This document shows positions 1 to 61,826 of a DNA stretch of 64,000 nt, in pieces (positions within the stretch are counted from its first letter, which is position 1; every line of letters starts with the position of its first letter). Below the pieces are notes generated by a model. That model was given only the letters and a program-made list of their open reading frames with translations, was not told the DNA's origin and did no database searches. The stretch comes from a virus. The stretch is taken from IMG/VR virus record IMGVR_UViG_3300032164_000001; one strand, 5' to 3'. The position numbers and the translations under genes are program-made.

Positions 1-3000
1 CCCACGCAGGCGCTTCTTGTCCGGATTAGATTCGTCCCAGAGGATCTCAGTGACCTCGATGCGAATCGTGTCTCCAGTCTTTACATTCAACTTTGAATTG
101 AAACTGCGGCCCATCTTCACATACGTCTTGCCGTTCAACTCCACGGGTTCGACCCACGTCTTTGCATCCTCCTGACTGACAGGGCCCACGGCGTAGAAAA
201 AGTTGAAGACTCCAGGCGAATCCTTCACCGGATGCGCATCCCAGACTATCCCCCTGATTTCTCGGATCATCTTCAACTTCGCCATGGAATCTGTCTCACG
301 CAGCGTGACAGTACCCTCGGCGTACTTGAGCATTGCCCCCTCGGAACCTGGAATCTCCCGAGCCCACTTCAAAGCTGGTTCCATCTCCTCCTCGGAATGA
401 ACCAACCTCGACTCGGTGAGCAGCAGTCGCTCGAGCTCCCTCTTTGACATGAACTCATGCAGCAGCTCGAGCCGTGTGCGCAGTGGTAGCACCACCACGT
501 TGCCCCTTGTCGGATGGTATAAGATGTCAAAAAGTTGCACGCGGACATTGACGTCATTTGCTGCTGAAGCACCACGAAACGTGGCAAGCTCACGTCGAGG
601 CACAGGGGCACCGGAATCGTCGACGGCCATAAACTCGCCATCCAGGATGTACGGACCAGGAATGGTCTCGAGCTCTTTCTTCAAACCGGGAAGGTGATCG
701 AGAAAGTTGGAGATTGGCGTCTTTCGATCCCAGATGTCCTCGGAGATAGCCAACAGACGTCCTTCGCCATCTCGTTGAATCGACACACGAAATCCATTCC
801 ATTTCGGCTGCACGTAGATGCCAGTCTTCAGCATCTCATCGGTGGCAAAGTCCGCATAGAGCCGGTCCATGTCGTTCGACCTGAACTCGTTGCTAGGCCT
901 CGGTGCGGCCTTCATCGGCTTGTAAATGGCCAACGGCCTGAGGCGTTCTCTATCGTGTGTCTTGTCGTCACCGGGTTTGATGTCAGCCGGATCCCACACC
1001 TGTACATTGGTCAGCTTCTCTCCACCAGCCAGAGTGATCGTTGCAATCTTCTCCTCTTTATTGACAGAGCTCGCTTCCTCACTGAGCGCATGCACATGGC
1101 CTGTCGGCTTGTCATGAGGATGACCCTTGGCCGGCTGTACCTTGCCATTCACGACTGCATGCGTATGTGGCACGGCTTTGGCCGCAGCGCCGTCGCTGAT
1201 GACCGTCTCCGTTGTGTGACCATTTCCCTCACCGTCGACAATGGCCTGGTGGCTGTGCTTGTGACTTCGTCCTGCTTCACCCGTTGTACAACGCGCTGTG
1301 GACCGCTTGATTGGCTCTCCCACACCCTCACTGTGCTCCCAGATCCAGACTGTTCCCTCTCCTTCTTCGGCTCGCAGAATGATCAACCCACTGAATTCGC
1401 CTGGAAGGTTCTTGCCTTGCAGCTTGAACTTCTTGAAGGCGCGGCTGTCTTCCAGAAACTCGATGGTTCCTGTATGAAGAACACTGATCGACGACTCGGT
1501 GTCCTTCGTCGGGTTCAGATTCAATCCACCGTAGCTGGTGCCGGGCTTCACTTCGCCTTCGAGCTTCATCAGCTCTGCAGCTGCGCTCCCACTGGCCGTC
1601 TGATGCAAGGCCGTCACGCGTTGGTTCGAAGAGGGATCTTCTAGGAGCTGGAAGTCCTCGACGGACGCTCCTCGTCGAATGAAGAGATGGTAGATCTGTC
1701 TGGTCGGCGCCGCCCGGATAACCATCGCTCCCTTCCATCGTTGCCAAGAAAGAGTGAAAGGCGCACTGCCCAATGACATGCTGCTCACTGCTGTTTTCTC
1801 TTGACTCACGGGCTCAATTCGATCTAAAATACGGGAGGTTTGGGTGGGGTGAGGTTTATGTATGGGGGGTGTGGGGGGATTCCTCAGCGATATTGCAAAC
1901 TTGTCATACGCCCTTTCCACCGCCAGTAGGCTGTTCTCAGTTTCTTCTGATTTGCAGTAATCCCGGAAACTCCTTTCTTGCTCTAAGTCCAGCTTGTGAT
2001 GAGTTGCAATAGCATCGAGCGCGGTCTCGGGTTGTGGCCTGTACAGGTAGTACTTCGTGACGACGCGCTTGAACTGAGAGTCGACGAGCTTGATGTTCTC
2101 CTCGGTGAAGAAGTGCACATCGACGAGGGCATCGCGGATCTGCAGGCGCTCCTTCTCTTCTGTTGCCCGCCAGTACTGAAACTCCTTCGGCACGACGGAC
2201 TTGAGACCTGGTGGCAGGTAGGCCCAGCCCTTGGGTGGAATACGCTTCACGTTGACGGCTCGACGCTTCAAGACCGATGGCAGAAGTGACTTGGCGAACA
2301 TGGCCGTCCAGAACGGCACGCCTTCGGGCTGCTTGCGACCGGCCTCCACGTCTGGGTCCGTGGGCTTTCCCCCTTCGGAGACGAGCAATCTGAAAGTGAG
2401 CAAGCCGGAGAACTTGGGGTCCTTCTCGCAGAAGTACTCGTGGAAGTACGGCGTGCGCTCACCCCAGGACACTTGAGGCCTGGCCGTGATAACCATGAAC
2501 CCCTTTTCATTCCTCGTCGCACCCACGCTCCCTGGTTCAAAACCCTCTTCCACATCGAGCCACTGCTTGGGCTCCGGCGCCTTCGTTGCGGCATAGACCC
2601 GGTGTGGAGCTCGCAGGGGCTTGTTCCAGTCGGAGCCATCGATGGCGAAGGAGGAGACGATCTTCTTGGCCTCAGCGAGTGTCTCCGGCTTTGCGATCTT
2701 GCCCTTGATGGCATCCGCGGCCGTGTAGCCAATGAGGTAGCCATTCGCAGCGATCCTGATGTCCATGTGAACCGAGGCACCCCTGACGTGATGCTGCACG
2801 ACCGCCGGAAACGGTTTCTCCGTCGGTGGCAACTTCAAGAAGGGGTCCTGCTTGGCAATGAGCTCTTCGAGTTCTTCGACCAGTATCTCGGCATCACGCA
2901 TCTCGACGATCGTGTTGTAGTCCTCCCGCCTGCGCACGACCAAGTCATAGATGGGCAAATGGGCAGTGAAAGGCCCCACTCCGGCGAAGTCATCTTTCTC

Positions 3001-4944
3001 CAGCGCACCGCCATGGAATGACATGCGCTGGCCGATCTCCGCCGGCATCATGCGTCCGAGACGGAACTTCAGGATGTGAGCGGTTGCCTCGTCGAGCGGC
3101 CCACGAAGCAGCACATCGATGTCGTTCTTCGTCACGCCGTTGTTGGCAATGGAGCCCACGACCGAAACGACCGGACTGCGTAGCAAGAACTCTTCATGGA
3201 AGTGCGGCAGAAGCTCCTCCAGCTTCAACTCTGGCAGCTCCCCTGCGCTCCCCGGATGAATCGGGGCGTAGCGCTGACTCGGCCCGGCCTTGTAGAGCCC
3301 GGCCAGCTCCGGCGCATTCTCGATGTCAATCCCTCTCCGCTTGCATTCATCGAGGATGAACTTGAGCGCGTTCTCCACATCTTCCTTGGGCATGCTGTCC
3401 ACACTCGTGCGCCCCTCGGTGTATTCGGTCTCGAGCACCGTCTTGGCCGTGGCGTAGAGCTGCAATAGTTCCTCACTTGACAGCTGACGCAAGATGTCCG
3501 GAGTGAGCCCTCGAAAAGAGAGAAACGGCTTCTCTTCCTGCTTGCTTTGGGCGGGTTCTCGTGGTTGGCCTGCTGTCGACCCGTCTGTCGGTTCTTGTGG
3601 TTGACGTACTGTTGACTTGCTCAGAGCCTGTGGGAGCTCGATGACCGGGCCGTATCGACGGGCGGAGACGATGCGCTTCAGCTTCAGCGGCGGGTTGAAG
3701 GCCGCCACAAGCTTCATGGACATGTAGTAGATCGGAGTCTCGGTGGAGAACTCCTCACGAGAGAACTTGTCGATGCCATCTCGCATGTCATCCGGCATCT
3801 TCGAGAGATCGGCATACTCGACAGGTGCATCCAGAGTGATGACACCCCACACGTACTGGGCATCGGCCTTGGTCGGAGCCACCTCGTTGAGCAAGAACTG
3901 CCGCTGACCAGTTCGTCCTGTGCGTTGAAGTCTAGACAGCACGCCTGTAGACTGTTCCTTACGCAACCTTGCAATGTTGAAGGCTGCATCTGGCGTCTTC
4001 AGAGTGGAAAGCTTTCCCTTTGGCTGCTCGGCCTTCTCTACAAATTGAATCTCGTCCGAATGGATGAGACCACCGTCCGCGTCGTAGAGCGCATCGACGT
4101 GATGAAGGATGGCCTTGTGGAGAGTAGCCCCCTCCTGTACGAACTTGTCCTCGAGGGCCAAGAAGCCCTCGAGGCATGCAATGGCGTCCTCTGATAGCAC
4201 CAAGATGCGCGTCTCGGCTGGCAAAAACTCTCGGGCCATTCTGAGCTGCGTGATGAGCTTCTCTGCCAGGATGAAGATGTTCTCAAGCGAAGCAGCAACC
4301 GGCTTCTCGGTGAATGGCACCTCGGAGTAATCCTCGACGAGAGTCGAACCGACAACAACCACCGTGCGAAGCAGTGCGGTGTTGAGCTGCTCGGGCTCCA
4401 TGAGATGAATGGCTTGCTCGACGAAGGACGGGGCCACCTTGGCGAACGTGAGCGCCAGTGACAGCACATTGCCCAGGACCTGCAACTGCTGTTCCGTCGT
4501 AATCTCACTCCAATCAGCCTGTTTGCGCTCCGTGGCAACTGCTTGCTCCGCAACCGGATGCTTCCAGGGTTTGAGCTCGTCGAAGGCCTCGAGTTTCACC
4601 ACCGTATAGGCATACAGCCTGCGGCTGCGTGGCCACCAGCTCTTGCGCTCCTCCTCGGAGATCTTGTGCTGGTCGCTGAGCCTGCGAAACTGTGCAATGG
4701 AGATCGGCTTCGCCGCACCCAATTCCATCACGCCGTAGATGAACTGCTTGTCGCCAAAGTGCAGACGCTCCCCTGCAACATCGAGTTGCCTCGAGTGCAC
4801 GATGAGCCTCTTCTCACCACGTCGTACCGCTTCCGCATGGGGCTCGACCATGCGACGGAGTGGATCTGACTTCGCCGAACGCAGGAGCGTTGTGAGGTTC
4901 TGCAAGTTGTCGACAAGCTGCTCGAGCTCTTTCTTCGAATTCAT
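1..4944 (-). CDS. Giant multidomain ('polyvalent') head-region protein: ASCH-like x2, Pol-beta-type nucleotidyltransferase, LigD 3'-phosphoesterase domain plus a degenerate second copy, His-rich segment, ATP-dependent DNA ligase domain; 3' end runs off the window
   Basis: Translated by hand from ATG 4944 (GGAGG SD upstream). The frame reads open to position 1 and the ORF track lists no minus ORF in it. Motifs: PHAEAVRRGEK..IYGVMELG..LYAY (ASCH-like); VVGSIA..DIDVLL (NTase); VVQHHVRGASVHMDIRI (PE); ligase motifs QPKWNGFR, LDGEF, FDILY, EGAMLK, AKLK. Confidence 0.85.
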   Translation of the reverse strand, partial: MNSKKELEQLVDNLQNLTTLLRSAKSDPLRRMVEPHAEAVRRGEKRLIVHSRQLDVAGERLHFGDKQFIYGVMELGAAKPISIAQFRRLSDQHKISEEERKSWWPRSRRLYAYTVVKLEAFDELKPWKHPVAEQAVATERKQADWSEITTEQQLQVLGNVLSLALTFAKVAPSFVEQAIHLMEPEQLNTALLRTVVVVGSTLVEDYSEVPFTEKPVAASLENIFILAEKLITQLRMAREFLPAETRILVLSEDAIACLEGFLALEDKFVQEGATLHKAILHHVDALYDADGGLIHSDEIQFVEKAEQPKGKLSTLKTPDAAFNIARLRKEQSTGVLSRLQRTGRTGQRQFLLNEVAPTKADAQYVWGVITLDAPVEYADLSKMPDDMRDGIDKFSREEFSTETPIYYMSMKLVAAFNPPLKLKRIVSARRYGPVIELPQALSKSTVRQPQEPTDGSTAGQPREPAQSKQEEKPFLSFRGLTPDILRQLSSEELLQLYATAKTVLETEYTEGRTSVDSMPKEDVENALKFILDECKRRGIDIENAPELAGLYKAGPSQRYAPIHPGSAGELPELKLEELLPHFHEEFLLRSPVVSVVGSIANNGVTKNDIDVLLRGPLDEATAHILKFRLGRMMPAEIGQRMSFHGGALEKDDFAGVGPFTAHLPIYDLVVRRREDYNTIVEMRDAEILVEELEELIAKQDPFLKLPPTEKPFPAVVQHHVRGASVHMDIRIAANGYLIGYTAADAIKGKIAKPETLAEAKKIVSSFAIDGSDWNKPLRAPHRVYAATKAPEPKQWLDVEEGFEPGSVGATRNEKGFMVITARPQVSWGERTPYFHEYFCEKDPKFSGLLTFRLLVSEGGKPTDPDVEAGRKQPEGVPFWTAMFAKSLLPSVLKRRAVNVKRIPPKGWAYLPPGLKSVVPKEFQYWRATEEKERLQIRDALVDVHFFTEENIKLVDSQFKRVVTKYYLYRPQPETALDAIATHHKLDLEQERSFRDYCKSEETENSLLAVERAYDKFAISLRNPPTPPIHKPHPTQTSRILDRIEPVSQEKTAVSSMSLGSAPFTLSWQRWKGAMVIRAAPTRQIYHLFIRRGASVEDFQLLEDPSSNQRVTALHQTASGSAAAELMKLEGEVKPGTSYGGLNLNPTKDTESSISVLHTGTIEFLEDSRAFKKFKLQGKNLPGEFSGLIILRAEEGEGTVWIWEHSEGVGEPIKRSTARCTTGEAGRSHKHSHQAIVDGEGNGHTTETVISDGAAAKAVPHTHAVVNGKVQPAKGHPHDKPTGHVHALSEEASSVNKEEKIATITLAGGEKLTNVQVWDPADIKPGDDKTHDRERLRPLAIYKPMKAAPRPSNEFRSNDMDRLYADFATDEMLKTGIYVQPKWNGFRVSIQRDGEGRLLAISEDIWDRKTPISNFLDHLPGLKKELETIPGPYILDGEFMAVDDSGAPVPRRELATFRGASAANDVNVRVQLFDILYHPTRGNVVVLPLRTRLELLHEFMSKRELERLLLTESRLVHSEEEMEPALKWAREIPGSEGAMLKYAEGTVTLRETDSMAKLKMIREIRGIVWDAHPVKDSPGVFNFFYAVGPVSQEDAKTWVEPVELNGKTYVKMGRSFNSKLNVKTGDTIRIEVTEILWDESNPDKKRLRG
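1801..1878 (+). promoter_or_regulatory. Repeat A copy 1: sigma70-like promoter + G-tract leader (antisense inside CDS)
   Basis: TTGACT-18-TAAAAT-ACGGGAGGTTTGGGTGGGGTGAGGTTTATGTATGGGGGG. Confidence 0.8.
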
Positions 4945-5087
4945 CGTTCGATCCTCCATGGATGATCGCGGTCTGAGATGCTTTGGAGACGATGGACTCC
5001 CCGTCGATTGACGCCTGAGGATGCTTTCCAGATTGCGGGCTCCCCATTTGTCGGTGTTGGGGATCGGGGCTCGACCCGAACTGTGCA

Positions 5088-5552
5088 TCAGGTTGGAGTC
5101 CAGATCCGAGATCCCGGGGCCAGTGGCTCGTAGACCTGTCCGTCAAGCTCGCAGCGCAGGGCCTTGCCCATCAGGTCGAGCGTCTGTGTGACCGAGTAGT
5201 CCATGTCACCTCGAGCACGACGGAACCACTTCTCGCAGATGGCAAAACGGCGACGTACCTCGTCGTGCGTCGGACGCACCGTGGAGAACGGTTTCCGTCG
5301 CTGGTCCTCCCCGAATGAGCGCCAGATGCTGTTCTCGATGGCCTCGAAGACCAGGCGCAGGTCTGCGTCGCTCCGCATGAGAGAGGCGAAAGGTTTCGAG
5401 TCGCCCTGGATCTGAGGTACACCCTGCTCCATGAGCTTCATCGTGGCTTGATACTTTTCCTCGAAATCTTGCTCCTCCTGAAGGATTCGCTCCCTCTCCT
5501 CATCGGTCTGGGGCTCCGGTTCGTTCATCGTGTCTTCCTTTACCTCAGGCAT
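5088..5552 (-). CDS. Hypothetical protein between portal and multidomain gene
   Basis: 154-aa ORF packed co-directionally after the portal. Confidence 0.7.
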   Translation of the reverse strand: MPEVKEDTMNEPEPQTDEERERILQEEQDFEEKYQATMKLMEQGVPQIQGDSKPFASLMRSDADLRLVFEAIENSIWRSFGEDQRRKPFSTVRPTHDEVRRRFAICEKWFRRARGDMDYSVTQTLDLMGKALRCELDGQVYEPLAPGSRIWTPT

Positions 5553-7400: not shown

Positions 7401-7429
7401 ATGATAGACAGTCTTTGCTGGACAGTCAA
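7401..7429 (-). promoter_or_regulatory. sigma70-like promoter for portal operon
   Basis: TTGACT-17 nt-TATCAT on minus strand. Confidence 0.6.
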
Positions 7430-8192: not shown

Positions 8193-8220
8193 ACCCGAGC
8201 AGAGGCAGTGCATCTGCAGC
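8193..8220 (+). repeat. Degenerate copy of 28-bp dispersed repeat B
   Basis: ACCCGAGCAGAGGCAGTGCATCTGCAGC vs consensus GCCCGTGCAGAGGC-RKY-GTATHTGCAAC. Confidence 0.65.
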
Positions 8221-29396: not shown

Positions 29397-29425
29397 AGGA
29401 ATAGCCGTTTCCCCGCATAATTGTC

Positions 29426-29497
29426 TTGACAGTTCCACATTGCATAATATAGAATGACGGGTGGTTGGGGTGGGTTAAGGTTTGTATATAGGGGGTT
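29426..29497 (+). promoter_or_regulatory. Repeat A copy 2
   Basis: TTGACA-18-TAGAAT-GACGGGTGGTTGGGGTGGGTTAAGGTTTGTATATAGGGGG. Confidence 0.8.
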
Positions 29498-29536
29498 GTT
29501 AAATGAATCCAAGAGCTTGCGTCAGCACTGAATCAT

Positions 29537-31880: not shown

Positions 31881-31897
31881 TGGAGGTTCATTCCTCT

Positions 31898-32413: not shown

Positions 32414-32422
32414 GCAAGCTCT

Positions 32423-33016: not shown

Positions 33017-33328
33017 TTATCCTATTGGCTTTCCTTGTGTTGGCATGTGCGTCGGTTTCACAGGTTCCGCGGGTTCCACAGGCTCCAGAACCCACTGTTC
33101 ATTCGGATCGGAGACAAAGCAGGCCCCACCGCCGCCCGCAAAGACAACCCAGCCATTGGGGACACGCAGACGGTACACACCGATCCACGCTCCGCCACCC
33201 ACGGACTCAACTTCTCGCGGAAAGACGGTCAGACTGCGATAGGGCCCCTGAGCCCCGGTGCCGCCCGATGGCGGCTTGACCTTCGTCGGATCGATTGCTG
33301 ATCCCTCTGGTTGATATCTCTCATTCAT
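33017..33328 (-). CDS. Hypothetical protein
   Basis: RLRVPNGWVV..FVSDP motif. Confidence 0.55.
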   Translation of the reverse strand: MNERYQPEGSAIDPTKVKPPSGGTGAQGPYRSLTVFPREVESVGGGAWIGVYRLRVPNGWVVFAGGGGACFVSDPNEQWVLEPVEPAEPVKPTHMPTQGKPIG

Positions 33329-33588
33329 TCTTTCACTCCGATGAAAACTATTCTGAACTGTGTCGAGAGCCGTCCTTACCTAAGATTCCTTGTTGACTAG
33401 GGCAACGACCGACCCTTCCTGCAAACCCTGTTTTGCCCGCGTGGCATCGAAGTCCTGCTCCAGCCACATCCACTTCCGCAGCTCTGCCAGTCTTGCTTCA
33501 AGCTTGTTCCACTCATTCACGAGCCTGCACTCCTCGGCTCGCATCTGTTCCAACAGCGTAGCCATTGCTTCCTCCTGGTGGTCCTCGC

Positions 33589-33858
33589 CTAAGGAGCTGA
33601 TGGGATGTCGAGAATGACCGTGCCTTTGTCCTTGGTGTCGACGTAGACCCTTCCACCAGCCTTCACATGGGCCATAAGCTCGGCCACCTTTCGCACGGCG
33701 TATCGGACTGCCTCAGAGACGGTTGTTGCGCGGATGCCCTTGCGCACGGTGGAGGTCTCCTTCTCTGTGGCCTTGTCAAACATGAACGTTCTTCGTCGAT
33801 AACGAGGCTCCGGCTTGGCCACGCCGGGCTTGCGCCTGAGTACTGGTCCCTTGTTCAT
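33589..33858 (-). CDS. Possible ribbon-helix-helix regulator
   Basis: RRTFMF..TTVSEAVRYAV; first gene after leftward promoter. Confidence 0.45.
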   Translation of the reverse strand: MNKGPVLRRKPGVAKPEPRYRRRTFMFDKATEKETSTVRKGIRATTVSEAVRYAVRKVAELMAHVKAGGRVYVDTKDKGTVILDIPSAP

Positions 33859-33867
33859 GGTTGAGCA

Positions 33868-33966
33868 GTCTAGTGTATGATTTTACTCGAGTCAAGTGAG
33901 AATTACATTTTTGTCGAGAAAAAGGCACAGAATCTTCTTGACAGGCCAGAGCGCATGTTCTATAAC
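33868..33966. promoter_or_regulatory. Divergent sigma70-like promoter pair
   Basis: Minus: TTGACT-17-TAGACT; plus: TTGACA-17-TATAAC (33938-33966). Confidence 0.7.
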
Positions 33967-33976: not shown

Positions 33977-34004
33977 GCCCGTGCAGAGGCAGTGTATCTG
34001 CAAC
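33977..34004 (+). repeat. Dispersed repeat B
   Basis: GCCCGTGCAGAGGCAGTGTATCTGCAAC just downstream of the -10 box. Confidence 0.85.
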
Positions 34005-34847: not shown

Positions 34848-34875
34848 GCCCGTGCAGAGGCATCGTATATGCAAC
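34848..34875 (+). repeat. Dispersed repeat B
   Basis: GCCCGTGCAGAGGCATCGTATATGCAAC, overlapping the methylase ATG. Confidence 0.85.
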
Positions 34876-38615: not shown

Positions 38616-38981
38616 ATGCTCATTGATCAAATACGTAAGCAGGTAGAGCTAACATTCGAAGTCTCAAAATGCAAGAAGGAAATGGAAAGCAGGTTGGTAG
38701 TAGCCTGCAATAACGGAGCTGGGTGTGTCCTATACGCTATTGGTTCGTGTTGGGAAGCTTGGTACGAGGGCTCATGCAGTTACGTGCTTGACGACAACGG
38801 ACTTGATGATGCTCCGGATGGAATCAGCATTTGGGAAGGGCGTATGCTTAGCTGGGGGCCTGACTACAATGGAGAGTATGACGCTGAGCTGCGCGGAGAA
38901 TTTCGTAATCTAACCGAAAAAGAGTGGAAATTGCTGGCTGAGGGTTGCGCACCTTGGGATGAAAAGGAATGGTTGAAATGA
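38616..38981 (+). CDS. Hypothetical protein
   Basis: PDGISIWEG..GEFRNLT..EW motif. Confidence 0.55.
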   Translation: MLIDQIRKQVELTFEVSKCKKEMESRLVVACNNGAGCVLYAIGSCWEAWYEGSCSYVLDDNGLDDAPDGISIWEGRMLSWGPDYNGEYDAELRGEFRNLTEKEWKLLAEGCAPWDEKEWLK

Positions 38982-39419
38982 CTCGAAAGAAGAAACCACA
39001 GAGAGCTGAGTGCCTTGTCTGTGACCCCGTCAGATGATTGGGGTATGTGATGAGAGGAGAAATATGAATACTACGTTAATCATTGAAATCAAGATTGTCG
39101 AACCAGGACATACGTCTTGTAGTGTTTGGGTTCCAGAACGATCTCATGTACTGGTACATGAAGAGGTTTATATTACAGAGGAGACAAAACCTTCTGAGAG
39201 TTGTTCGTGTGGCCAGGGCAAGATTCCCGAAAAGAAGATCTACTTTTGTCAAGGTCCTCGGGGCCAAATTAGCGGTTTCTCTGTAGCTAATGCAGTAGCT
39301 AACTATTGCCAGAGTATTGTTAAATGGTTTACGTGATACATGAAGTGTGTTTGCTGCAACGCAGAGATAACAGAACTCACTGGAGCTTTTTGCCTCAAGT
39401 GCGGAGAGGATGATTCACA

Positions 39420-39806
39420 ATGATTACAGGAGACCAAGTTCTGGCTCATTTGGTAGGAGATTACTTTCTACAATCCGACTGGATGGCTACAACTAAGAAG
39501 GAACGAATTTTACCTTGTTTCTTTCATGCTGTACTGTATGTACTACCATTCCTGTTTCTGACCAGAAGTTGGAAGGCGTTGATTGTAATAGGAGTGTCTC
39601 ATTTTCTAATAGACCACTGGAAGCTTCCTCAGGTTCTGGGTTGGTTAAAGAACTTCCTGGCGCCCAGATCAACTTGGGTTTCATGGTCGAAGTCCAACTT
39701 GGGCTTTCAACCAGATCGTCCTATTTGGTTGGTGGTGTGGTTAGTTATTATATTGGACAATACGCTACATGTAGCTGTTAATGGCTTTTGTCTACGATGG
39801 ATGTGA
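39420..39806 (+). CDS. DUF3307-like membrane protein
   Basis: AHLVGDYFLQSDWMA..H..SHFLIDH..DNTLH. Confidence 0.8.
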   Translation: MITGDQVLAHLVGDYFLQSDWMATTKKERILPCFFHAVLYVLPFLFLTRSWKALIVIGVSHFLIDHWKLPQVLGWLKNFLAPRSTWVSWSKSNLGFQPDRPIWLVVWLVIILDNTLHVAVNGFCLRWM

Positions 39807-40111
39807 GGATTAACGATGCTAAAGGGACCGGTAAATGACGTAGAACTATCTGAAGCACTGATAGTCGAGTTAATAGAAGTTGCAAGGACTCCAGTCTAAC
39901 AGAAGGAAATGACCAGGATGTGGGTAGGTATCATAGTCGGATTCATGTTGGGTATCTGTATCACGTTACTAACAGGACTTTGGATTGAATACCTCGCAAA
40001 CAGAGAATACTGGCTCTTGAAGTTCTTATTCCCACTTTGGATGTCTAGACGTACATTCAAGAGAGCTGTTATTGAACGTGAGATTTTCGCTATCTTCGGA
40101 GATCCAAAGAG

Positions 40112-40795
40112 ATGACTGACCCTATATGGCAAGAAGCCCACGAAGAATCGATACGTCGACGCACCAGACTACTACGAAGGATGGTTGGTGATGAGATGAA
40201 AAAGTGGTGGTTACTTGTTCAAGGGTCTTTGATGTTTGCGCTTTGTGTTGTACACCTGCATTCGAATCCAATAGCTAATCGCGCATGGTATATCTCTGGG
40301 CTGATTTGCGGTTTCGCATGCCTGGTAATGAGTACAGTGGAATGGCTTAGACCAATAGAAAGAATGTACAAGAAGGCCATATCCAAAGTTCCCTTCACGG
40401 ATGGCGACGCAGTTCACACCGGCCCTTATCGAACTAATGAAGTGCCACTGGCACAGGATGAGCTGGGTGGTGCGTCATCTTGTGATACCATTCTCCGACT
40501 ATTAGAAAGAGAGCCAGCGGAGTCTTTTGCAATAGTAGCCGACGGAGTGAAATTGATTGTATCTCCTAAGTTGGAAATACGAGTCTCTCCTTACTATAGC
40601 AGATTGTCTGTTTGCGATCCCACAAAACACTCAAGCAAACCAGTATGGCGTAGCCTGACTACTACTTATCGCCAAGACAGAAGAGCAAAGAAGATATGGT
40701 CGTGTGTTTCATCACAGTTAGAGACTAAACAACAAGAGGACCTTGCTAAGGCTGTAGCGCAGGAACTGCAATATAAGAGGAAAGGTGAACTATGA
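40112..40795 (+). CDS. Membrane protein, hypothetical
   Basis: Two TM segments; GPYR motif. Confidence 0.55.
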   Translation: MTDPIWQEAHEESIRRRTRLLRRMVGDEMKKWWLLVQGSLMFALCVVHLHSNPIANRAWYISGLICGFACLVMSTVEWLRPIERMYKKAISKVPFTDGDAVHTGPYRTNEVPLAQDELGGASSCDTILRLLEREPAESFAIVADGVKLIVSPKLEIRVSPYYSRLSVCDPTKHSSKPVWRSLTTTYRQDRRAKKIWSCVSSQLETKQQEDLAKAVAQELQYKRKGEL

Positions 40796-42900: not shown

Positions 42901-42935
42901 ATCCTCAGTTTCTTCTCGACATCGCCCTAGTTTTC

Positions 42936-43010
42936 TTGACACGCAGGCGCAGTTCGGTCTAAAATACGGGCGGCTTGGGTGGGGTAAGGTTATGTATATG
43001 GGGGTTTTCT
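42936..43010 (+). promoter_or_regulatory. Repeat A copy 3
   Basis: TTGACA-18-TAAAAT-ACGGGCGGCTTGGGTGGGGTAAGGTTATGTATATGGGGG. Confidence 0.85.
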
Positions 43011-43089
43011 ACTTGCACATCGAATACATAAGGTCAAGTCTTGAATAAAACAGTGTCGCCCTTTACAGCTTGGTGAAGGGAGCGGTGCA

Positions 43090-43698
43090 ATGACCAAACT
43101 TGCTGGACGACAGATTCCAAGTCTTGACGCATTGCGTGAATTGTTCAAGCTACTCGGAGAGAACGGAACCGCTCTTGAGGAGCGAGACCGCAAGCTGCTC
43201 ATCATCTGGGAGACACGTGCGCGCGAGCGTGTTCTGAACAAGAGCCCGAGCCCGCTGGCTGCACCGCATCGATGGAAACTTCCGGACGAACGGCAGAGTC
43301 TGACGCATCGATTCCAGATGACAGAGGAGAACGGCGGGCCGTTGAAGGCCTATCTGACTTTCGGGATGTACGCCGATGGCAAACTGGGGGAGCTGTTCTG
43401 CAGCATCGCAAAGGAGGGTTCCTTCGTTTCAGGGATCATGGATGCTCTGACGTGCGTCATCTCCATCGGCTTGCAGTACGGTGTGCCCCTTGACATGTTC
43501 ACACAGCGTTTTCGCTACTCGAAGTTTCAACCGGCGGGCATTGTGCAAGGAGCGCCGGAGGCACTGAAGGGTCATGGCTTCTTCAGCTCAATCCTGGACT
43601 ACATCGCGGCGGTCTTGGAACTGCGCTTCCCATCCGGTTTGCTGCATGCCCCCGACGCGCCACATTTGTTGCCCAAACCGTTGGCTTCTACGACCTGA
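43090..43698 (+). CDS. Stand-alone class II ribonucleotide reductase C-terminal (TSCPD-like) domain protein
   Basis: KLPDERQSLTHRF..YLT.G.Y.DG.LGELF..KEGS..SIGLQYGVPL..F.P.G..SSILDYI. Confidence 0.85.
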   Translation: MTKLAGRQIPSLDALRELFKLLGENGTALEERDRKLLIIWETRARERVLNKSPSPLAAPHRWKLPDERQSLTHRFQMTEENGGPLKAYLTFGMYADGKLGELFCSIAKEGSFVSGIMDALTCVISIGLQYGVPLDMFTQRFRYSKFQPAGIVQGAPEALKGHGFFSSILDYIAAVLELRFPSGLLHAPDAPHLLPKPLASTT

Positions 43699-43886
43699 CT
43701 GGAGGACACAGAATGCTCATCTTGATCATGTGCTTGCTACTTGCTCTTTCCGTCATCCTGATCGGCTCACCGGCCTGGAAGAACCCGCCCGTGGGCGTGG
43801 GAATGCTGATCGCCGCAGCCGCAGCGGCCGTCTGCATCTACCAGATGCTTGGCCATCGTTAACAGGCTGCAGGCCTCGTCTGAGGG

Positions 43887-43961
43887 TGCCCGCGGAGGGA
43901 GTCGAACCCCCACCCATCTAGCCTCCTTACGGCGTAGTGCTCACCAATGAGCTACGCGGGC
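43887..43961 (-). ncRNA. Aberrant tRNA-like gene (bulged anticodon stem, loop GTAAGGA)
   Basis: Acceptor GCCCGCG/CGCGGGC, TAGCTCA..GAGC D arm, GGTTCGACTCC T arm. Confidence 0.7.
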
Positions 43962-43965
43962 ACAG

Positions 43966-44041
43966 TGGGGCGGGGAGGAGTTGCACACTCCGACCTCTCT
44001 GCCAACGACGACAGAGCGCTCTACTGCTGAGCTACCGTCCC
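43966..44041 (-). ncRNA. Aberrant tRNA-like gene (extended anticodon stem, non-canonical T loop)
   Basis: GGGACGG/CCGCCCC, TAGCTCAGCAGTAGAGC, CTCTGTC/GGCAGAG, GGAG-TGTGCAA-CTCC. Confidence 0.6.
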
Positions 44042-45759: not shown

Positions 45760-45870
45760 GAATTTTCTCCTCGGTCGTCTTCTGCCAGGCACCACGCCTG
45801 GACTTCATGCGACCACTTTTGCCGTCAACCTTAATCGCCCAGCGAGTCAGCTGTCAAGGCGATTTTTTCA

Positions 45871-45944
45871 TTGACAGGGTAACGGGAATGTACTAAAATA
45901 CGGGCGGCTTGGGTGGGGTAAGGTTATTGTATGTAGGGTTTTCT
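45871..45944 (+). promoter_or_regulatory. Repeat A copy 4
   Basis: TTGACA-17-TAAAAT-ACGGGCGGCTTGGGTGGGGTAAGGTTATTGTATGTAGGG. Confidence 0.85.
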
Positions 45945-46173
45945 GCTTGCCCATCGTCGGAGAAGGGACGTCCATGAAGACGGTGACGATCAGCCTCACA
46001 GCGGGCGCTCTTGATGAGCTCCAGAGCTGGCTCCTCATCAAGCAGGTTGCCGGGCACAACGTTGGCCGTGACTACGACCTGGCGGTTCAAGTGCTGGGGG
46101 CCAAGGACGGCGGGAGGGTGGAACTGGCCGGGCGGGATGAGAATCACATGCACAAAAAAGTAGCATCTAGTTC

Positions 46174-46202
46174 TTGACAGCAGACTCACTCTTTGCTAAA
46201 GT
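46174..46202 (+). promoter_or_regulatory. sigma70-like promoter for the RNA cluster / TROVE-like gene
   Basis: TTGACA-17-TAAAGT. Confidence 0.7.
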
Positions 46203-46240: not shown

Positions 46241-46441
46241 GCCCCGATAGCCTAACGGTAAAGGCAATTGTAACTTTCCGCTTGTGCACTCGGGTCAGCA
46301 CATGAGCCGCATGAGCCCGTGCAGAGGCGTCGTATTTGCAACATGGCTGGGCACATGCTGTCGCCAGTTGCAGGCTGATCCAATGGCTACAAGCCTACAA
46401 GTCGAGACAATCGATTGGGGGTTCGAATCCCTCTCGGGGCG
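46241..46441 (+). ncRNA. tRNA-scaffold RNA 1: 135-nt structured insert replaces the anticodon loop (Y-RNA-like)
   Basis: Acceptor GCCCCGA/TCGGGGC, D GCCT/AGGC, AC stem ATTGT/ACAAT, T GGGGG-TTCGAAT-CCCTC; insert GCTTGTGC-ACTC-GGGTCAGC..GCTGATCC-AATG-GCTACAAGC. Confidence 0.8.
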
Positions 46442-46666: not shown

Positions 46667-46814
46667 AAGTCTTGAGCAACGTGTAATAGGGAGAAGCAGA
46701 CAAGTCAATAGCTCAACGGTAGAGCGCAAGACTAATAATCTTGATGTTATCGGTTCAAATCCGATGTGACGTAGCAAAAAACAGCTTTTCTCACTCGCGC
46801 GTTGCTCAAGACTT
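46667..46814 (+). ncRNA. RNA 3: long stem with AATA/ACTC internal loop enclosing a complete tRNA(AAT)-like cloverleaf (46702-46773)
   Basis: AAGTCTTGAGCAACGTGT-AATA-GGGAGAAGC .. GCTTTTCTC-ACTC-GCGCGTTGCTCAAGACTT; inner GCTC/GAGC, CAAGA-CTAATAA-TCTTG, ATCGG-TTCAAAT-CCGAT. Confidence 0.8.
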
Positions 46815-50690: not shown

Positions 50691-52361
50691 ATGACGATTC
50701 ACGAAAAGGTGCTACGCTTCGAACTATTGGCCTCGAGTTCTACTGAACTGAATTGGCTCGACGCCGCCTTCGTTCGCGCCGCCCTGGAAGTCAGAGCAGG
50801 TGCCTGCGACGATGATGAAGATCTGACTCTGCGACTGATTGAGACTCCGGTGGCTCAGCCCGTCTTCAAAGCCGTCGCTCATCCAGGTGTGACGCTGCGG
50901 GGCCTGATGCGAGATACAACACCCCACGACTTTGCGGCAATGATCTCCAACACGGGTTACCGCCTGTCCAAGGGATACATCGAGAGCATTCTTGCTGGAA
51001 GTAGTGACATCACCCCCTTGGCCGCCGAATGCATCGCGGAGGTCTTTGGCCCCTCCAAGGAATACTGGCTGCAACAGCAGGCGGACTACAATGCCTGGCG
51101 GCTGCACCACGACGCAGAATCCGTAGAAGCCCGAAGGTTCGATGCAGACATGGATCAGAACAAAGAAATCTGTGCGAATGCCGAACCAGCCAGTCCGAAC
51201 CAGCAGTGTGACGCCAACCAGCCGATCTGGAGAGTAGTAGCAGAGGCCTTGTGGGGCATCCTTGACGACATCAGCACGGCCGGCGACATCGCAAAGGGGG
51301 ACGATGCGATGTACCGCGCGATGGTCGAGGACCTGCAGGCCAAGAAGAGTAACTACCTGGTCTCCTACGACGGGCAGACGCTCGTTCGCACTGGCGGTGA
51401 ACCGCCCCCGAATCCGCCCGTGGAAATGAGTACGCCAAGCAAGCCGAATGTCCTTCATCCGGGTGAGACACTGAAGATGATACTGAGGGAACGCAACCTC
51501 TCCATCGACGACTTGATCTCTTTCATCCGCAAGCTCTATCCGACCTGCGTCGACTTCGGTCCTGATCGCATCGCTCTCCTTCTCCAGGGCGAGGCAGACA
51601 TCTCCATCGACATTGCCTCGATGTTGCAAGGGGCTCTCGGTCCTACGCCATCGGCCTCATTGTGGCTGCAATGGCAAGCAGACTATAGCGCCCGTGCAGA
51701 GGCAGTGTATCTACAACAAGGAACGCCCGTGCAGAGGCGTCCAGTCGCGTCTTTGACGGAACAGCTGCAGGGTCGAGTCGCATGGCTCGAGCGTCAGATG
51801 GACACATGGGCAGAGCGCATCCGCAACCTCGAGAAGACGCTGGACGCCTGGCAAGAGACATCCTACACAGATCCCTGCAAGGAGTGCCAGGATTGCGGTT
51901 GCCTCTTTCTCCCCAGTGGAAACGAGAGAGATGCCACATTCAAGTGCCGACGCTGTACATCTCGGGTTGATCCTGCCGCACCGCCCAAGTGGGCGATCAT
52001 GTCGGAGCGAGACGAGGCGCCTGACAAGGCACCTGAGCCGAATGCCCCTTCGCCGTGGGCACAAATCCCCGATGCTCTGCTGGAGACACTGGCCGAGTAC
52101 GCGCACACGGCCTGGTCGGGCTGGATGCAATACATACTCCAGCAGTGCCTCGGCGGTGAGGTGGCCGTGATAGATATGCGCCAGCCCAGTCCTGGCATCC
52201 CATTGTCGGGTGTGGCGGTCATTCCCTCCGAATTGGTTGAACGATGGAGCAGGCAGATGCACACGACCTACGCCGATCTGCCGGAGGAGGAGAAGAAGAG
52301 CGACAGACTGGAGGCGCGGCGGATACTCGTCGGTCTTCGCACAGCGAAGGCGGTACCGTGA
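50691..52361 (+). CDS. Mosaic protein with two HigA-like HTH domains, a Zn ribbon and a C-terminal RyR-like domain
   Basis: HPG..L..IT...A...FG.S..YWL..Q..Y twice; CQDC..CRRC; AEYAH..W..W..Q..T.YADLPEEEK.SDR. Confidence 0.7.
   Translation: MTIHEKVLRFELLASSSTELNWLDAAFVRAALEVRAGACDDDEDLTLRLIETPVAQPVFKAVAHPGVTLRGLMRDTTPHDFAAMISNTGYRLSKGYIESILAGSSDITPLAAECIAEVFGPSKEYWLQQQADYNAWRLHHDAESVEARRFDADMDQNKEICANAEPASPNQQCDANQPIWRVVAEALWGILDDISTAGDIAKGDDAMYRAMVEDLQAKKSNYLVSYDGQTLVRTGGEPPPNPPVEMSTPSKPNVLHPGETLKMILRERNLSIDDLISFIRKLYPTCVDFGPDRIALLLQGEADISIDIASMLQGALGPTPSASLWLQWQADYSARAEAVYLQQGTPVQRRPVASLTEQLQGRVAWLERQMDTWAERIRNLEKTLDAWQETSYTDPCKECQDCGCLFLPSGNERDATFKCRRCTSRVDPAAPPKWAIMSERDEAPDKAPEPNAPSPWAQIPDALLETLAEYAHTAWSGWMQYILQQCLGGEVAVIDMRQPSPGIPLSGVAVIPSELVERWSRQMHTTYADLPEEEKKSDRLEARRILVGLRTAKAVP
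51690..51740 (+). repeat. Dispersed repeat B, one full and one partial copy inside CDS
   Basis: GCCCGTGCAGAGGCAGTGTATCTACAAC and GCCCGTGCAGAGGCGT. Confidence 0.85.
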
Positions 52362-54082: not shown

Positions 54083-54110
54083 GCCCGTGCAGAGGCATCG
54101 TATTTGCAAC
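54083..54110 (+). repeat. Dispersed repeat B
   Basis: GCCCGTGCAGAGGCATCGTATTTGCAAC upstream of the JAB gene. Confidence 0.85.
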
Positions 54111-56228: not shown

Positions 56229-56503
56229 AGGAAGACCGATGTTCTTCTACCTGCACTCCGATCATGCCTGTTTAACTCCAATCAAGGAGAGACAGGCATG
56301 CAATACGGGAGCACGACGAAGTTCAAAGTCTGGACGGACATCGATTTCTCGCTCAGTGAACTGAAGGGTCTTCGACGAAGGGGCGTGCTGCAACGACGCT
56401 TCGCCCGCGCGAGAAGATTCTACAAGAACCAGCTCGCCCGCCAGCGCCGTAGCTGGAACAGGAACATCCTTCTGCAAGAGGTAGCAGAAAATAATAATTT
56501 ATC

Positions 56504-56578
56504 TTGACAGATCAGCCTAATTCGATCTAAAATACGGGCGGCTTGGGTGGGGTAAGGTTATTGTATGTAGGGTTTTCT
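56504..56578 (+). promoter_or_regulatory. Repeat A copy 5
   Basis: TTGACA-18-TAAAAT; leader identical to copy 4. Confidence 0.85.
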
Positions 56579-56711
56579 ACGTACTTCCGAGGAGTTATGC
56601 CAACAGTATGCCACGGGTCGGTGTCTGGCCGATCAGAGCGAAGAATCGGTAATCGGGCCAGAGGTCTCCAACGAATGGCTCAGTGAGCCAAGTGAATGGT
56701 TCGGCGAACCA

Positions 56712-57026
56712 TCACCCGTTTGAGCATGCTGGCTGGGGTAGGCCGGCTATCTTGCAAGCGAGGGACAATCCCGCGGGGAACAGCTTGTAGAGCGTCGTCA
56801 GCGTGAGCTTGCACCCGGTGCAGACCTCGCGAACGTGTGGCGAGCGGTGCTTGCTGACATAGAAGCACCTGAGAAACTCGATGACCTCGATGTGTGGCAC
56901 GTCGAGCTCGAGGCCGAGCTTCCGGGCATAGGAGACGGCAATGGGCGGCTCCCAGTCACTTGCATGGACGAAGTAGCCGTTGCCATCCAGTTGGATGATA
57001 CGGCCAAGGGTGTTCAACGTCTTCAC
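56712..57026 (-). CDS. TusE/DsrC/DsvC-family sulfur relay protein
   Basis: LDGNGY..DW..IA..A..L..H..VI.FLR.FY..P..LY.LFP.G..ACKIAGLP.P.C. Confidence 0.9.
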   Translation of the reverse strand: MKTLNTLGRIIQLDGNGYFVHASDWEPPIAVSYARKLGLELDVPHIEVIEFLRCFYVSKHRSPHVREVCTGCKLTLTTLYKLFPAGLSLACKIAGLPQPACSNG

Positions 57027-57268
57027 TTCGGCGTCAGGCTGGCAAGAAGTCCGTCCATGACGCCATCGATGATCTTGTCGAGAGCCTCGTCGACGGCTGT
57101 GTCAACAGCGTCATCGGGGAGAGGGATCTCAACGGAAAAGGTGTCGGAGTCGTCTGAACCGGAATGCTCTGCATCTTCTGAGCCGGAATGCTCTGCATCT
57201 TCTGAGCCGGAATGCTCTGCATCTTCACCTGGGTCATATTTACACACATATGCTGAAAATTCTTTCAT
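57023..57268 (-). CDS. Small acidic protein with 3x EDAEHSGS (24-bp tandem repeat)
   Basis: Tandem at ~57155-57226. Confidence 0.55.
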   Translation of the reverse strand: MKEFSAYVCKYDPGEDAEHSGSEDAEHSGSEDAEHSGSDDSDTFSVEIPLPDDAVDTAVDEALDKIIDGVMDGLLASLTPK

Positions 57269-57298
57269 ATTGCTGCTGCCGCCTGTAACGTTTCGAAC

Positions 57299-57712
57299 AT
57301 GGACGCACTGAATGGTCAGCTCGACCGTATCCTAGAGTTGATGTTGACGCACAGTGAGTTTTTGAGCAAGCAACAGCTGGAACTGCAGAGTATCACTAAG
57401 CATATGAAGGAGCTAGAACAACGCGTTGCAGGATTGGACAGACAGCAACGGGCTCTGGGTCTCGACTTTCACGCCGTGCATCAGGCCTGCTTGCAGATCT
57501 CCCGGGAGGTCATTTTCTTCACCAATCGGTGCGAAGACCGGGGGAACCGGATTCGAGACATTCTGGGGCAGGTACGGGATGGCGAGCACAGTGAAGCCAC
57601 GGAAGCAGCCGCGGAGTTCATGCGTGCTCTCGAGTGCTCGGGCACACTGGTGGAGGGGATGAAGAAGACCGTATCCAGTGAGTTCCTAGCGATCAAGACG
57701 CCGAAGAAGTAG
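57299..57712 (+). CDS. Coiled-coil hypothetical protein
   Basis: 137-aa ORF. Confidence 0.55.
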   Translation: MDALNGQLDRILELMLTHSEFLSKQQLELQSITKHMKELEQRVAGLDRQQRALGLDFHAVHQACLQISREVIFFTNRCEDRGNRIRDILGQVRDGEHSEATEAAAEFMRALECSGTLVEGMKKTVSSEFLAIKTPKK

Positions 57713-58911: not shown

Positions 58912-58920
58912 GATTTCTTT

Positions 58921-59990: not shown

Positions 59991-60009
59991 GTCGATTCAG
60001 TTGATTGCG

Positions 60010-61465: not shown

Positions 61466-61751
61466 GTTCTGAATCTGGACTGCCGGTGCCGGTTAAGGAG
61501 TCGCCGTTGGCTGTGTGTGGTTTGCAGCACCGGCAGTCCATCATTCCGGTATGTTGTAGCTGAGATGCGCGCCTGTTGTCAAGCAGATTCGTTACGCCTT
61601 CTTGTTGCGTGTTTTTAGCTTGCATTTTGGTGCAAGGTATTGCAGAGTGGGCCGGTCAGCGTTCAGCAAACAGTTCAAGTATTGAATCGGAAAAACAACT
61701 GGTAAATCGCCGGCTTTGCTGTAGAATTTAGCACGTTTGCCGACTTTTATG

Positions 61752-61826
61752 TTGACATTACACAGCGGTCTAATATAGAATGAGGGCGGTTTGGGTGGGT
61801 TGAGGTTTGTATATGGGGGCTTTCCT
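61752..61826 (+). promoter_or_regulatory. Repeat A copy 6
   Basis: TTGACA-18-TAGAAT-GAGGGCGGTTTGGGTGGGTTGAGGTTTGTATATGGGGG. Confidence 0.8.

What the first reader, a model, noticed from the sequence alone, without database searches (positions are those of the whole stretch)
1801..61826. Six co-oriented sigma70 promoter + G-tract leader elements, half of them pointing antisense
Seen: copies at 1801, 29426, 42936, 45871, 56504 and 61752, all on the plus strand. Each is TTGAC(A/T)-17/18-TA(A/G)AAT followed by a ~45-nt C-poor, G/T-rich leader with four runs of three or more G. The promoter spacer varies but the G runs are kept. Copy 1 lies inside a minus-strand CDS without breaking its frame, and copies 2 and 5 face the 3' ends of minus-strand genes, so driving a downstream gene cannot be the only role. 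Inference: nascent-RNA G-quadruplex/R-loop formers, for example transcription-primed replication origins (analogous to T4 origin R-loops or ColE1 RNA II), RNAP-driven DNA-entry promoters, antitermination signals, or a multicopy sRNA.
Basis: partly seen in the sequence, partly recalled or inferred. Interest (0 to 1): 0.78.

Follow-up and report, generated by a model that had tools for sequence, protein, structure and literature searches.

The report
Phage promoter family with G-tract leader
A clade of large uncultured phages reuses one strong bacterial-type promoter with a fixed G-rich start of transcript, and about half the copies point against genes, including one kept by selection inside the giant head gene.

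Summary
The window holds exactly six copies, all on the + strand, with a chance expectation of 0.02. Each has a T-tract, TTGAC(A/T), 17-18 bp, TA(A/G)AAT, then a conserved ~45-nt G/T-rich leader.

The window is part of a ~180-kb uncultured phage. I found ten homologous copies in five related phages.

Every lineage with portal identity of at least 57 % keeps one copy antisense inside the giant prohead-protease/ligase gene. There the -35 is held by nucleotide-level selection (minor Gln codon CAA in 6 of 6, P about 1e-4). In the window, and more weakly in the relatives, that copy resembles its own genome's copies more than its orthologues.

Of 16 copies:
- 6 are antisense in the head gene
- 4 sit at convergent gene junctions
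- 6 directly precede unrelated small genes

The leaders share no RNA hairpin, no Rfam family and no peptide. Only four G runs and a following (A/T)TG are conserved. A canonical three-tier G-quadruplex is neither conserved nor predicted, and nothing origin-like follows.

Best reading: a promoter class for unmodified host RNA polymerase, probably early, whose G-tract marks the class. Many copies drive antisense or head-on transcription.

Co-orientation is a tendency, not a rule. Other phages in this scan showed promoter cassettes pointing antisense, but not this element.

The parts
1789..1880 (+). Copy 1: T-tract, -35 TTGACT (1801-1806), 18-bp spacer, -10 TAAAAT (1825-1830), G-tract leader with two extra G6 runs. 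It is antisense inside the giant head gene and overprints the linker ...RNPPTPPIHKPHPTQTSRILDRIEPVSQEK...
29414..29505 (+). Copy 2: TTGACA-18-TAGAAT plus leader. It lies in the convergent gap after the tail-gene block and points into the 3' end of the minus-strand block 29537-33858.
42924..43017 (+). Copy 3: TTGACA-18-TAAAAT plus leader, ~125 nt upstream of the TSCPD-domain gene (43090-43698).
45858..45952 (+). Copy 4: TTGACA-17-TAAAAT plus leader, in a divergent gap upstream of a 67-aa gene (45974-46177), tRNA-like RNAs and the vWA operon.
56496..56587 (+). Copy 5: TTGACA-18-TAAAAT plus leader. It overlaps the stop of the 56298-56507 gene and points into the DsrC-like cassette (minus strand). 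It is the only plausible promoter for the + gene at 57299.
61740..61833 (+). Copy 6: TTGACA-18-TAGAAT plus leader, in a divergent gap upstream of an 81-aa gene (61862-62107).
1..5088 (-). Giant prohead-protease / end-healing / ATP-ligase fusion gene (runs off the window). It hosts copy 1 in a variable inter-domain linker.
7401..7429 (-). Plain promoter (TTGACT-17-TATCAT, no G-tract leader) upstream of the portal gene, conserved in relatives. It is convergent with copy 1.
33867..33895 (-). Plain promoter (TTGACT-17-TAGACT) heading the minus-strand block that copy 2 opposes.
56712..57268 (-). DsrC-like gene (56712-57026) and an 81-aa gene (57023-57268), both transcribed against copy 5.
57299..57712 (+). 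137-aa gene with only a 30-nt upstream gap, so it is probably transcribed from copy 5 through ~760 nt antisense to the DsrC cassette.

Best explanation
These are copies of one portable promoter-plus-leader module used by a clade of large uncultured phages. Each copy is a strong promoter for the unmodified host sigma70/sigmaA RNA polymerase, with a T-rich upstream element, TTGAC, 17-18 bp and TAnnnT. I therefore take them to be early-class promoters.

The promoter is fused to a conserved G-tract that spans about -4 to +22, followed by an (A/T)TG and a second short block. The G-tract is the mark of the class. It has no partner strand to pair with, so it is read as single-stranded non-template DNA or as the first ~25 nt of the RNA. 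It sets how polymerases leaving these promoters behave: processivity, resistance to termination, or shut-off by a class-specific factor.

The module has two uses:
- It expresses small accessory or early genes.
- Equally often, it launches antisense or head-on transcription. This goes into the head-maturation and portal genes from a copy overprinted on a linker of the giant head gene, and into the 3' ends of opposing gene blocks at convergent junctions. This holds those genes down, or stops read-through, while the class is active.

Shown: the elements exist; they are homologous in six lineages; the position and orientation of the embedded copy are conserved; the embedded -35 is under nucleotide-level selection; copies within a genome evolve in concert (clearly in the window, weakly in relatives A and B); there is no RNA hairpin.

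Inferred: promoter activity and timing; antisense interference; single-strand readout of the G-tract.
For: - Six copies, chance expectation 0.02. Five of six match the sigma70 consensus at 11 of 12 with a T-rich upstream region.
- Ten further copies in five related phages, found by profile and by pattern.
- G-tract promoters form a separate mode: 14-18 G in the first 30 nt against a main mode of 7-10. None of 21 promoters in 763 kb of distant relatives reaches 14.
- A copy lies antisense in the giant gene in all six lineages with portal identity of at least 57 %.
- The codon over the -35 is CAA in 6 of 6, though CAA is 22 % of Gln codons (P about 1e-4). The preceding codon is nGT in 6 of 6 while its amino acid varies S/C/G. 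The encoded linker is otherwise poorly conserved.
- The embedded copy resembles its own genome's copies (0.83) more than its orthologues (0.60) in the window; the gap is smaller in relative A (0.78 vs 0.69) and slight in relative B (0.68 vs 0.62).
- Four more copies sit at convergent junctions facing opposing genes.
- The gene at 57299 has only a 30-nt upstream gap and needs copy 5.
- Downstream genes are unrelated to one another, so the module is generic.
- RNAalifold finds 0 consensus pairs. Invariant columns are TTGAC and four GG doublets.
- Opposing plain promoters without the G-tract exist at 7429, 33895 and 58527. One plain promoter carries a different repeated leader, which fits leader-coded classes.
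- Terminator-like sites are no more frequent than in shuffles.
- The cores of copies 4 and 5 are invariant between strains, while variants fall just upstream.
Against: - There are no transcript data, so start sites, timing and antisense RNAs are all inferred.
- The host is unknown.
- In relatives the -10 is weak (TATCCT, TACCCT, TAGGCT). These promoters may therefore need a factor or another sigma, which would undercut the 'early, unmodified polymerase' reading.
- No NusG-family or sigma gene was found in the held parts of four relatives, although these are at most 55 % complete. No candidate reader of the G-tract is known.
- Within-genome similarity could come from gene conversion alone.
- The + block at 34032 has its own promoter, so copy 2 has no obvious sense target.
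- Co-orientation in the window is not clearly beyond what the gene-strand bias would give.
Confidence: 0.55

Rival explanations
1. The G-tract is a loading or recognition site on the exposed non-template strand (or the nascent RNA) at an early pause. A processivity or antitermination factor binds there, as RfaH does at ops. That would make the untranslated antisense transcripts resistant to Rho. This is a specific form of the best explanation.
For: - It lies in the first ~25 transcribed nt, is strand-specific and has no RNA fold.
- A conserved (A/T)TG follows the G block, with G at -10 in 9 of 13 copies, which fits the consensus pause G-10 Y-1 G+1 described in PMC5995543.
- Many copies must make long untranslated antisense RNA, which normally falls to Rho.
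- Many relatives start the block with GGCGGT.
Against: - Similarity to ops is at chance level: 7-9 of 12, reached by 44 % of composition-matched random leaders. The essential A7 and G8 are mostly absent.
- No NusG-family gene was found in four partial relatives.
- In a G-rich sequence, G at -10 is expected anyway.
Confidence: 0.2
2. The G-tract forms a G-quadruplex and/or a stable RNA:DNA hybrid on transcription. This modulates promoter output or blocks oncoming polymerases. It is the core of the first reader's idea, without the origin role.
For: - Four G runs separated by 1-3 nt are the only invariant leader feature across six lineages.
- The leaders are six of about eleven places in the window with G4Hunter of at least 1.5 on the + strand.
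- Bases between the runs vary while the runs persist.
- R-loop-linked G4 formation that raises transcription has been described (PMC12137161, abstract).
Against: - Across lineages only two GGG and two GG runs are conserved, so at most a two-tier G4 is general.
- A three-tier G4 in the window copies needs a 15-nt loop.
- ViennaRNA with G4 energies does not choose a G4 in 5 of 6 window copies or in any relative. Relatives score a borderline 1.24-1.60.
- The first G run probably lies upstream of the start site, so it would be absent from the RNA.
Confidence: 0.15
3. They are PeSL-like mobile regulatory cassettes. In this view they are strong promoters whose long shared sequence mainly serves as a substrate for homologous recombination that shuffles accessory genes. 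The leader would be conserved by gene conversion and would have no function of its own.
For: - Within-genome similarity exceeds between-genome similarity.
- Copies 4 and 5 are identical over 45 nt.
- Copies flank accessory islands.
- The vWA block is inverted relative to the structural block between the window phage and relative A, and the DsrC gene is inverted next to copy 5.
- The PeSL precedent is in PMC2839356.
Against: - There is no stem-loop or terminator, which is a defining PeSL part.
- The G-run pattern is conserved across six lineages even where bases between runs have diverged. Gene conversion within a genome cannot explain that.
- The embedded copy keeps its position and its promoter hexamers under selection.
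Confidence: 0.1
4. They are transcription-primed replication origins, with an R-loop primer as in T4 oriF/oriG, ColE1 RNA II or mitochondrial CSB II.
For: A G-rich non-template strand right after a strong promoter favours RNA:DNA hybrids. There are several copies per genome, as with T4 origins. Function is independent of the downstream gene.
Against: - No A+T-rich unwinding element follows.
- There are at least six copies in 64 kb.
- The cumulative GC-skew minimum (32-34 kb) is not at a copy and tracks gene orientation.
- In relative A two copies fire outward from a junction of convergent gene blocks, so forks would meet transcription head-on.
Confidence: 0.05
5. The element is bifunctional: a promoter in one direction and a Rho-loading (rut-like) site in the other. 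The complement of the leader is about 45 nt of C-rich, almost G-free RNA placed just past the stop codons of opposing genes.
For: - Leaders have 1-5 C in 50 nt, so opposing transcripts would carry 1-5 G and 20-29 C there.
- Four copies sit right after the 3' ends of opposing genes.
- Intrinsic terminators are not enriched.
Against: Copies 4 and 6 lie in divergent gaps that no opposing transcript should reach. In the giant gene the C-rich strand is translated. In relatives the leaders hold more C (4-9), so the complement is less G-poor.
Confidence: 0.07

Closest known systems
PeSL (promoter-early stem-loop) cassettes of T4-type phages RB49/phi1 (PMC2839356, PMC4122927)
   Same: A repeated ~70-100-bp module with a strong sigma70-like promoter and an A/T-rich upstream region. 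It is dispersed through the genome, often sits before small genes of unknown function, and its copies are similar enough to recombine.
   Different: PeSLs carry a polyG...polyC stem-loop that terminates transcription. This element has G runs with no complementary C runs and no consensus pairing. PeSLs are described mostly directly upstream of ORFans; I saw no mention of copies embedded antisense within genes in the passages read. Here 10 of 16 copies are antisense and one is embedded in a conserved head gene.
ops / RfaH recruitment sites in operon leaders (PMC5995543)
   Same: A short G-rich signal in the early transcribed leader, read on the non-template strand at a TG pause. It programmes polymerase for long-range, Rho-resistant transcription.
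   Different: The sequence match is at chance level and the essential A7/G8 are missing. No NusG paralogue was found. Here the signal abuts the promoter itself.
T4 replication origins oriF/oriG, ColE1 RNA II and mitochondrial CSB II (own knowledge; CSB II in PMC3488243)
   Same: A promoter whose transcript stays hybridised downstream. CSB II uses G runs in the nascent RNA and the non-template strand.
   Different: There is no unwinding element, there are too many copies, and the contexts fit transcription control better than initiation of replication.
Excludon-type long antisense transcripts of Listeria, and the early 'anti-late' RNAs of phage T4 (own knowledge)
   Same: A strong promoter whose transcript runs antisense through neighbouring genes, and in one case (copy 5) goes on to serve as mRNA for the next co-oriented gene.
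   Different: Those are single loci without a shared, conserved leader. Here one module is reused at many places and kept inside a coding sequence.

Membership tests
sigma70/sigmaA-type promoter | -35 TTGACA-like and -10 TAnnnT hexamers 17 +/- 1 bp apart | tested here: met
   16 of 16 copies have TTGAC, a 17-18 bp spacer and TAnnnT. Five of the six window copies match 11 of 12.
sigma70/sigmaA-type promoter | Transcription start about 7 nt downstream of the -10, shown by RNA 5' ends | not testable with these tools
   No transcript data are available and the host is unknown.
Canonical G-quadruplex motif (G3+ N1-7, four runs) | Four runs of at least 3 G with loops of 1-7 nt, conserved among homologues | tested here: not met
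   Window copies have loops of 6, 1 and 15 nt. In relatives only two GGG and two GG runs are conserved. No G4 appears in the MFE for 5 of 6 window copies or for any relative.
Two-tier G-quadruplex motif (G2+ N1-4, four runs) | Four GG runs with short loops | tested here: met
   The GG-N2-GG-N4-GG-N2-GG columns are invariant in 10 aligned copies, and the pattern is present in all 16. Actual folding was not tested.
PeSL cassette | Strong sigma70-like promoter with an A/T-rich upstream region | tested here: met
   definition from PMC2839356
PeSL cassette | Stable stem-loop (polyG...polyC) acting as a terminator | tested here: not met
   RNAalifold finds 0 pairs in 16 leaders, and no terminator-like site adjoins the copies beyond chance.
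PeSL cassette | Recombination between copies that shuffles flanking genes | tested here: inconclusive
   There is concerted evolution and module inversions between phages. No junction was mapped to a copy.
ops / RfaH site | GGCGGTAGCGTG with G4, G5, A7 and G8 essential, and TG at positions 11-12 | tested here: not met
   The best match is 7-9 of 12, reached by 44 % of composition-matched random leaders, and A7/G8 are mostly absent (PMC5995543).
ops / RfaH site | A cognate NusG paralogue encoded by the element or its host | tested here: inconclusive
   PF02357 is absent from four relatives' records, but these are at most 55 % complete and the host is unknown.
T4-type R-loop origin (oriF/oriG) | Promoter followed by an A+T-rich DNA unwinding element | tested here: not met
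   Leaders are G-rich and followed by ordinary sequence. There is no skew inflection at the copies.
Structured cis-antiterminator RNA (HK022 put) or any Rfam family | Conserved stem-loops with covariation, or a match to a curated model | tested here: not met
   0 consensus pairs. Rfam gives only tRNAs at gathering score and at E up to 1.

The most novel reading that the evidence does not exclude
The G-tract is a new kind of signal read in single-stranded form, on the non-template strand or as a two-tier G4 or hybrid in the nascent RNA. It programmes polymerases leaving these promoters for long, termination-resistant antisense transcription. That would give this phage clade a genome-wide early antisense programme, whose oldest member is overprinted on the head-maturation gene. 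Its lineage-specific drift could reflect co-evolution with a phage factor, or escape from rivals' DNA-binding Cas12m guides.
Probability: 0.2. Interest if true: 0.8.

Novelty: new variant of a known kind. Interest (0 to 1): 0.6.

Why it matters
Repeated promoter cassettes are known in phages. A class defined by a hairpin-free G-tract at the start of the transcript, used as often against genes as for them, is not.

The copy kept inside a giant head gene shows nucleotide-level selection for an antisense promoter within a coding sequence. That selection holds across six phage lineages, which is rare and clear evidence that antisense transcription is functional here.

If the G-tract proves to set polymerase processivity or class-specific shut-off, it would be a new, compact cis-signal. 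It would also be a tool for reading temporal programmes directly from uncultured phage genomes.

Tried and rejected
- **Leader peptide or translation start.** The conserved (A/T)TG opens ORFs of 6 to 96 codons with no shared peptide. The real genes have their own Shine-Dalgarno sites 60-110 nt further on. Rejected.
- **Conserved RNA hairpin, riboswitch or put-like RNA.** 0 consensus pairs and no Rfam hit. Rejected.
- **Multicopy sRNA.** No terminator or shared 3' end. Unlikely.
- **ops site.** Chance-level match. Rejected as membership.
- **Phage NusG or sigma.** Not found in partial relatives. Inconclusive.
- **One cognate downstream gene.** None shared.
- **Cas12m link.** No CRISPR-like array lies in any reachable DNA. 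Untested.
- **Public searches for the leader core.**
  - The viral collection gave 1 chance hit.
  - Species genomes gave 36 singletons, none with the promoter or the distal runs.
  - Metagenomes gave one identical fragment of the same phage and one chance hit.
- **GenBank phages.** No DNA match.
- **The window's whole genome.** Not held, and the 180-kb ENA contig gave no DNA. I could not check the copies reported outside the window.
- **Strain-level SNPs.** Cores are invariant, but the power is too low to count.
Full report
**Observation**

The six sites read as described. A search with the leader core, allowing three mismatches, finds exactly these six. All are on the + strand, against 0.02 expected by chance.

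Alignment shows a conserved block from a T-rich stretch upstream of the -35 to about +45 past the -10, with unrelated flanks. The block is TTGAC(A/T), 17-18 bp, TA(A/G)AAT, then ACGGGCGGCTTGGGTGGGGTAAGGTT, an (A/T)TGTAT motif and a last G run. An unbiased repeat search recovers the family.

**Setting**

The window encodes a portal, tail proteins and a giant protein with an ATP-ligase domain. It has no DNA match among 50,697 phage records, and no whole genome is held for it.

Exact-protein look-ups place it on a 180,372-bp ENA contig whose DNA could not be fetched. Near-identical JGI fragments (99.2-99.6 %) do exist. The called genes on those contigs plus my own codon-usage map give the context of each copy:
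- Copy 1 lies inside the giant minus-strand gene.
- Copy 2 lies in the convergent gap after the tail block and faces the minus-strand block 29537-33858.
- Copies 3, 4 and 6 lie 75-125 nt upstream of + strand genes. Copies 4 and 6 are in divergent gaps.
- Copy 5 overlaps the stop codon of the last gene of a long + operon and faces a DsrC-like gene and an 81-aa gene on the minus strand.

Only 30 nt separate that 81-aa gene from the next + gene at 57299. That gene must therefore be transcribed from copy 5, through about 760 nt of antisense.

The window also has consensus promoters without the G-tract. On the minus strand these are at 7429 (portal), 33895 and 58527. On the + strand there is TTGACA-17-TATAAC at 33937. 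Each antisense copy thus opposes a plain promoter.

**Relatives**

Pattern scans of public collections for the leader core gave only chance singletons and one fragment of the same phage. The exact sequence is therefore private to this phage.

Portal and vWA-protein homologues led to diverged relatives. At the position homologous to copy 1, relative A (giant protein 59 % identical over its full length) has a T-tract, TTGACA, 17 bp and TATCGT on the antisense strand. This is followed by GGATGGCGGTGGGCGGGCGAGG.

A sequence profile and a looser pattern scan found ten copies in five related phages. Every lineage with portal identity of at least 57 % has one copy antisense inside its giant head gene. 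No copy appears in 763 kb from more distant relatives, apart from one borderline pattern hit (L082, 13 G) that I judged spurious.

Among all TTGAC-N-TAnnnT sites in the close clade, G content of the first 30 downstream nt is bimodal. The main mode is 7-10 and the second is 14-18. None of 21 sites in the distant relatives reaches 14.

**The embedded copy is selected as DNA**

The protein across the element is a low-complexity linker that differs in length and sequence between lineages. Three results point to selection on the DNA:
- The Gln codon lying over the -35 is CAA in 6 of 6 lineages. CAA is only 22 % of Gln codons in these genes (3 of 50 in relative A), so P is about 1e-4.
- The preceding codon is nGT in 6 of 6, while its amino acid is S, C, G, G, G, S.
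- The embedded copy resembles the other copies of its own genome more than its positional orthologues: 0.83 against 0.60 in the window, 0.78 against 0.69 in relative A, and only 0.68 against 0.62 in relative B.

**Contexts across 16 copies**

- Six are antisense in the head gene.
- Four are at convergent junctions pointing into the 3' ends of opposing genes. These are window copies 2 and 5, and relative A at 49552 and 51354.
- Six directly precede co-oriented genes, which are unrelated to each other.

On orientation, the window has 6 of 6 copies on one strand, relative A 3 of 4 and relative B 3 of 3. Most genes share the majority strand, so co-orientation is a tendency that I do not consider established beyond gene-strand bias.

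**What the leader is not**

- RNAalifold finds no consensus pair in 16 leaders.
- Rfam gives only tRNAs.
- The (A/T)TG opens ORFs of unrelated length and sequence, and the real genes have their own ribosome-binding sites further downstream.
- Terminator-like sites near the copies are no more frequent than in shuffles.

**What is conserved in the leader**

The conserved features are four G runs with 1-3-nt gaps, then (G/T)ATG(Y)T. In the 10-copy alignment the four GG doublets are invariant.

The leaders are among the most G4-prone places in the window: six of about eleven loci have G4Hunter of at least 1.5. However, a three-tier G4 needs a 15-nt loop and a distal run that relatives lack. ViennaRNA with G4 energies does not choose a G4 in 5 of 6 window copies or in any relative.

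The GGCGGT at the start of many relatives' leaders recalled the RfaH site ops. Against the published sequence and its essential bases (PMC5995543), the match is at chance level. No NusG-family or sigma gene was found in four partial relatives.

Nothing origin-like follows the leaders, and the GC-skew minimum tracks gene orientation, not the copies.

**Reading**

The best-supported explanation is a clade-specific class of promoters for the unmodified host polymerase, marked by a G-tract at the start of the transcript. The class is used both to express accessory genes and to launch antisense or head-on transcription.

How the G-tract acts is open. My order of preference is:
- a factor reading it on the exposed strand or on the RNA
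- a two-tier G4 or RNA:DNA hybrid
- a role of its C-rich complement as a Rho-loading site for opposing transcripts
- mere recombination homology, as in PeSL cassettes (PMC2839356)

A second repeated leader type following a plain promoter suggests that this phage codes promoter classes in its leaders.

I found no array in reachable DNA, so that idea stays untested.

Noticed in passing
window 8193-8220, 33977-34004, 34848-34875, 46315-46342, 51690-51717 (with a partial second unit just after), 54083-54110, all + strand: A second dispersed repeat family, GCCCGTGCAGAGGC(n3)GTATnTGCAAC, containing a small hairpin (TGCAGA...TCTGCA). One copy directly follows the plain promoter at 33937 and precedes a Shine-Dalgarno site. 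Another lies inside the predicted 556-aa gene, next to a TATAG. It may be a second leader class or a processing or recognition site.
   Followed up: partly
window 7401-7429 (-); L044 9950 (+); L045 3185 (+): The portal promoter gggtTTGACTgtccag...TATCAT is conserved in sequence and position across three phages with 65-70 % portal identity.
   Followed up: partly
window 57150-57226 (-) gene 57023-57268: Three tandem 24-nt units lie inside the 81-aa gene. The 180-kb contig's version of this gene is 73 aa, one unit shorter, so copy number varies between strains.
   Followed up: partly
window 38981-40219: A strain-variable island. About 1.2 kb with three small genes is present in the window and the 180-kb contig but absent from the 30-kb JGI contig. 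It is not flanked by G-tract copies.
   Followed up: partly
window 43884-43962 (-), 43966-44041 (-), 46702-46773 (+); L113 9571-9646 (-): The phage tRNAs have unusual A34 anticodons: Leu-AAG and Ile-AAT. A second tRNA-like gene next to tRNA-Leu is seen only by Rfam. In relative A the tRNA-Leu(AAG) sits immediately upstream of a G-tract promoter.
   Followed up: no
window 24001-24189 and 24807-24981; 24420-26057: Perfect 69- and 55-nt repeats 120 nt apart, and ~190-nt diverged repeats, lie inside the 1048-aa tail gene. The gene has an internally repetitive, fibre-like architecture.
   Followed up: no
close clade (301 kb) versus distant relatives (763 kb): TTGAC-N16-19-TAnnnT sites are about seven times denser in the close clade (58 in 301 kb) than in distant relatives (21 in 763 kb). 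This hints at different hosts or promoter usage.
   Followed up: no
window 56712-57026 (-) versus L047 16272-16580 (+): The DsrC-like gene lies on the opposite strand, relative to the ThiF/E1 operon, in the window phage and in relative A. The vWA block as a whole is inverted relative to the structural block between the two phages.
   Followed up: partly
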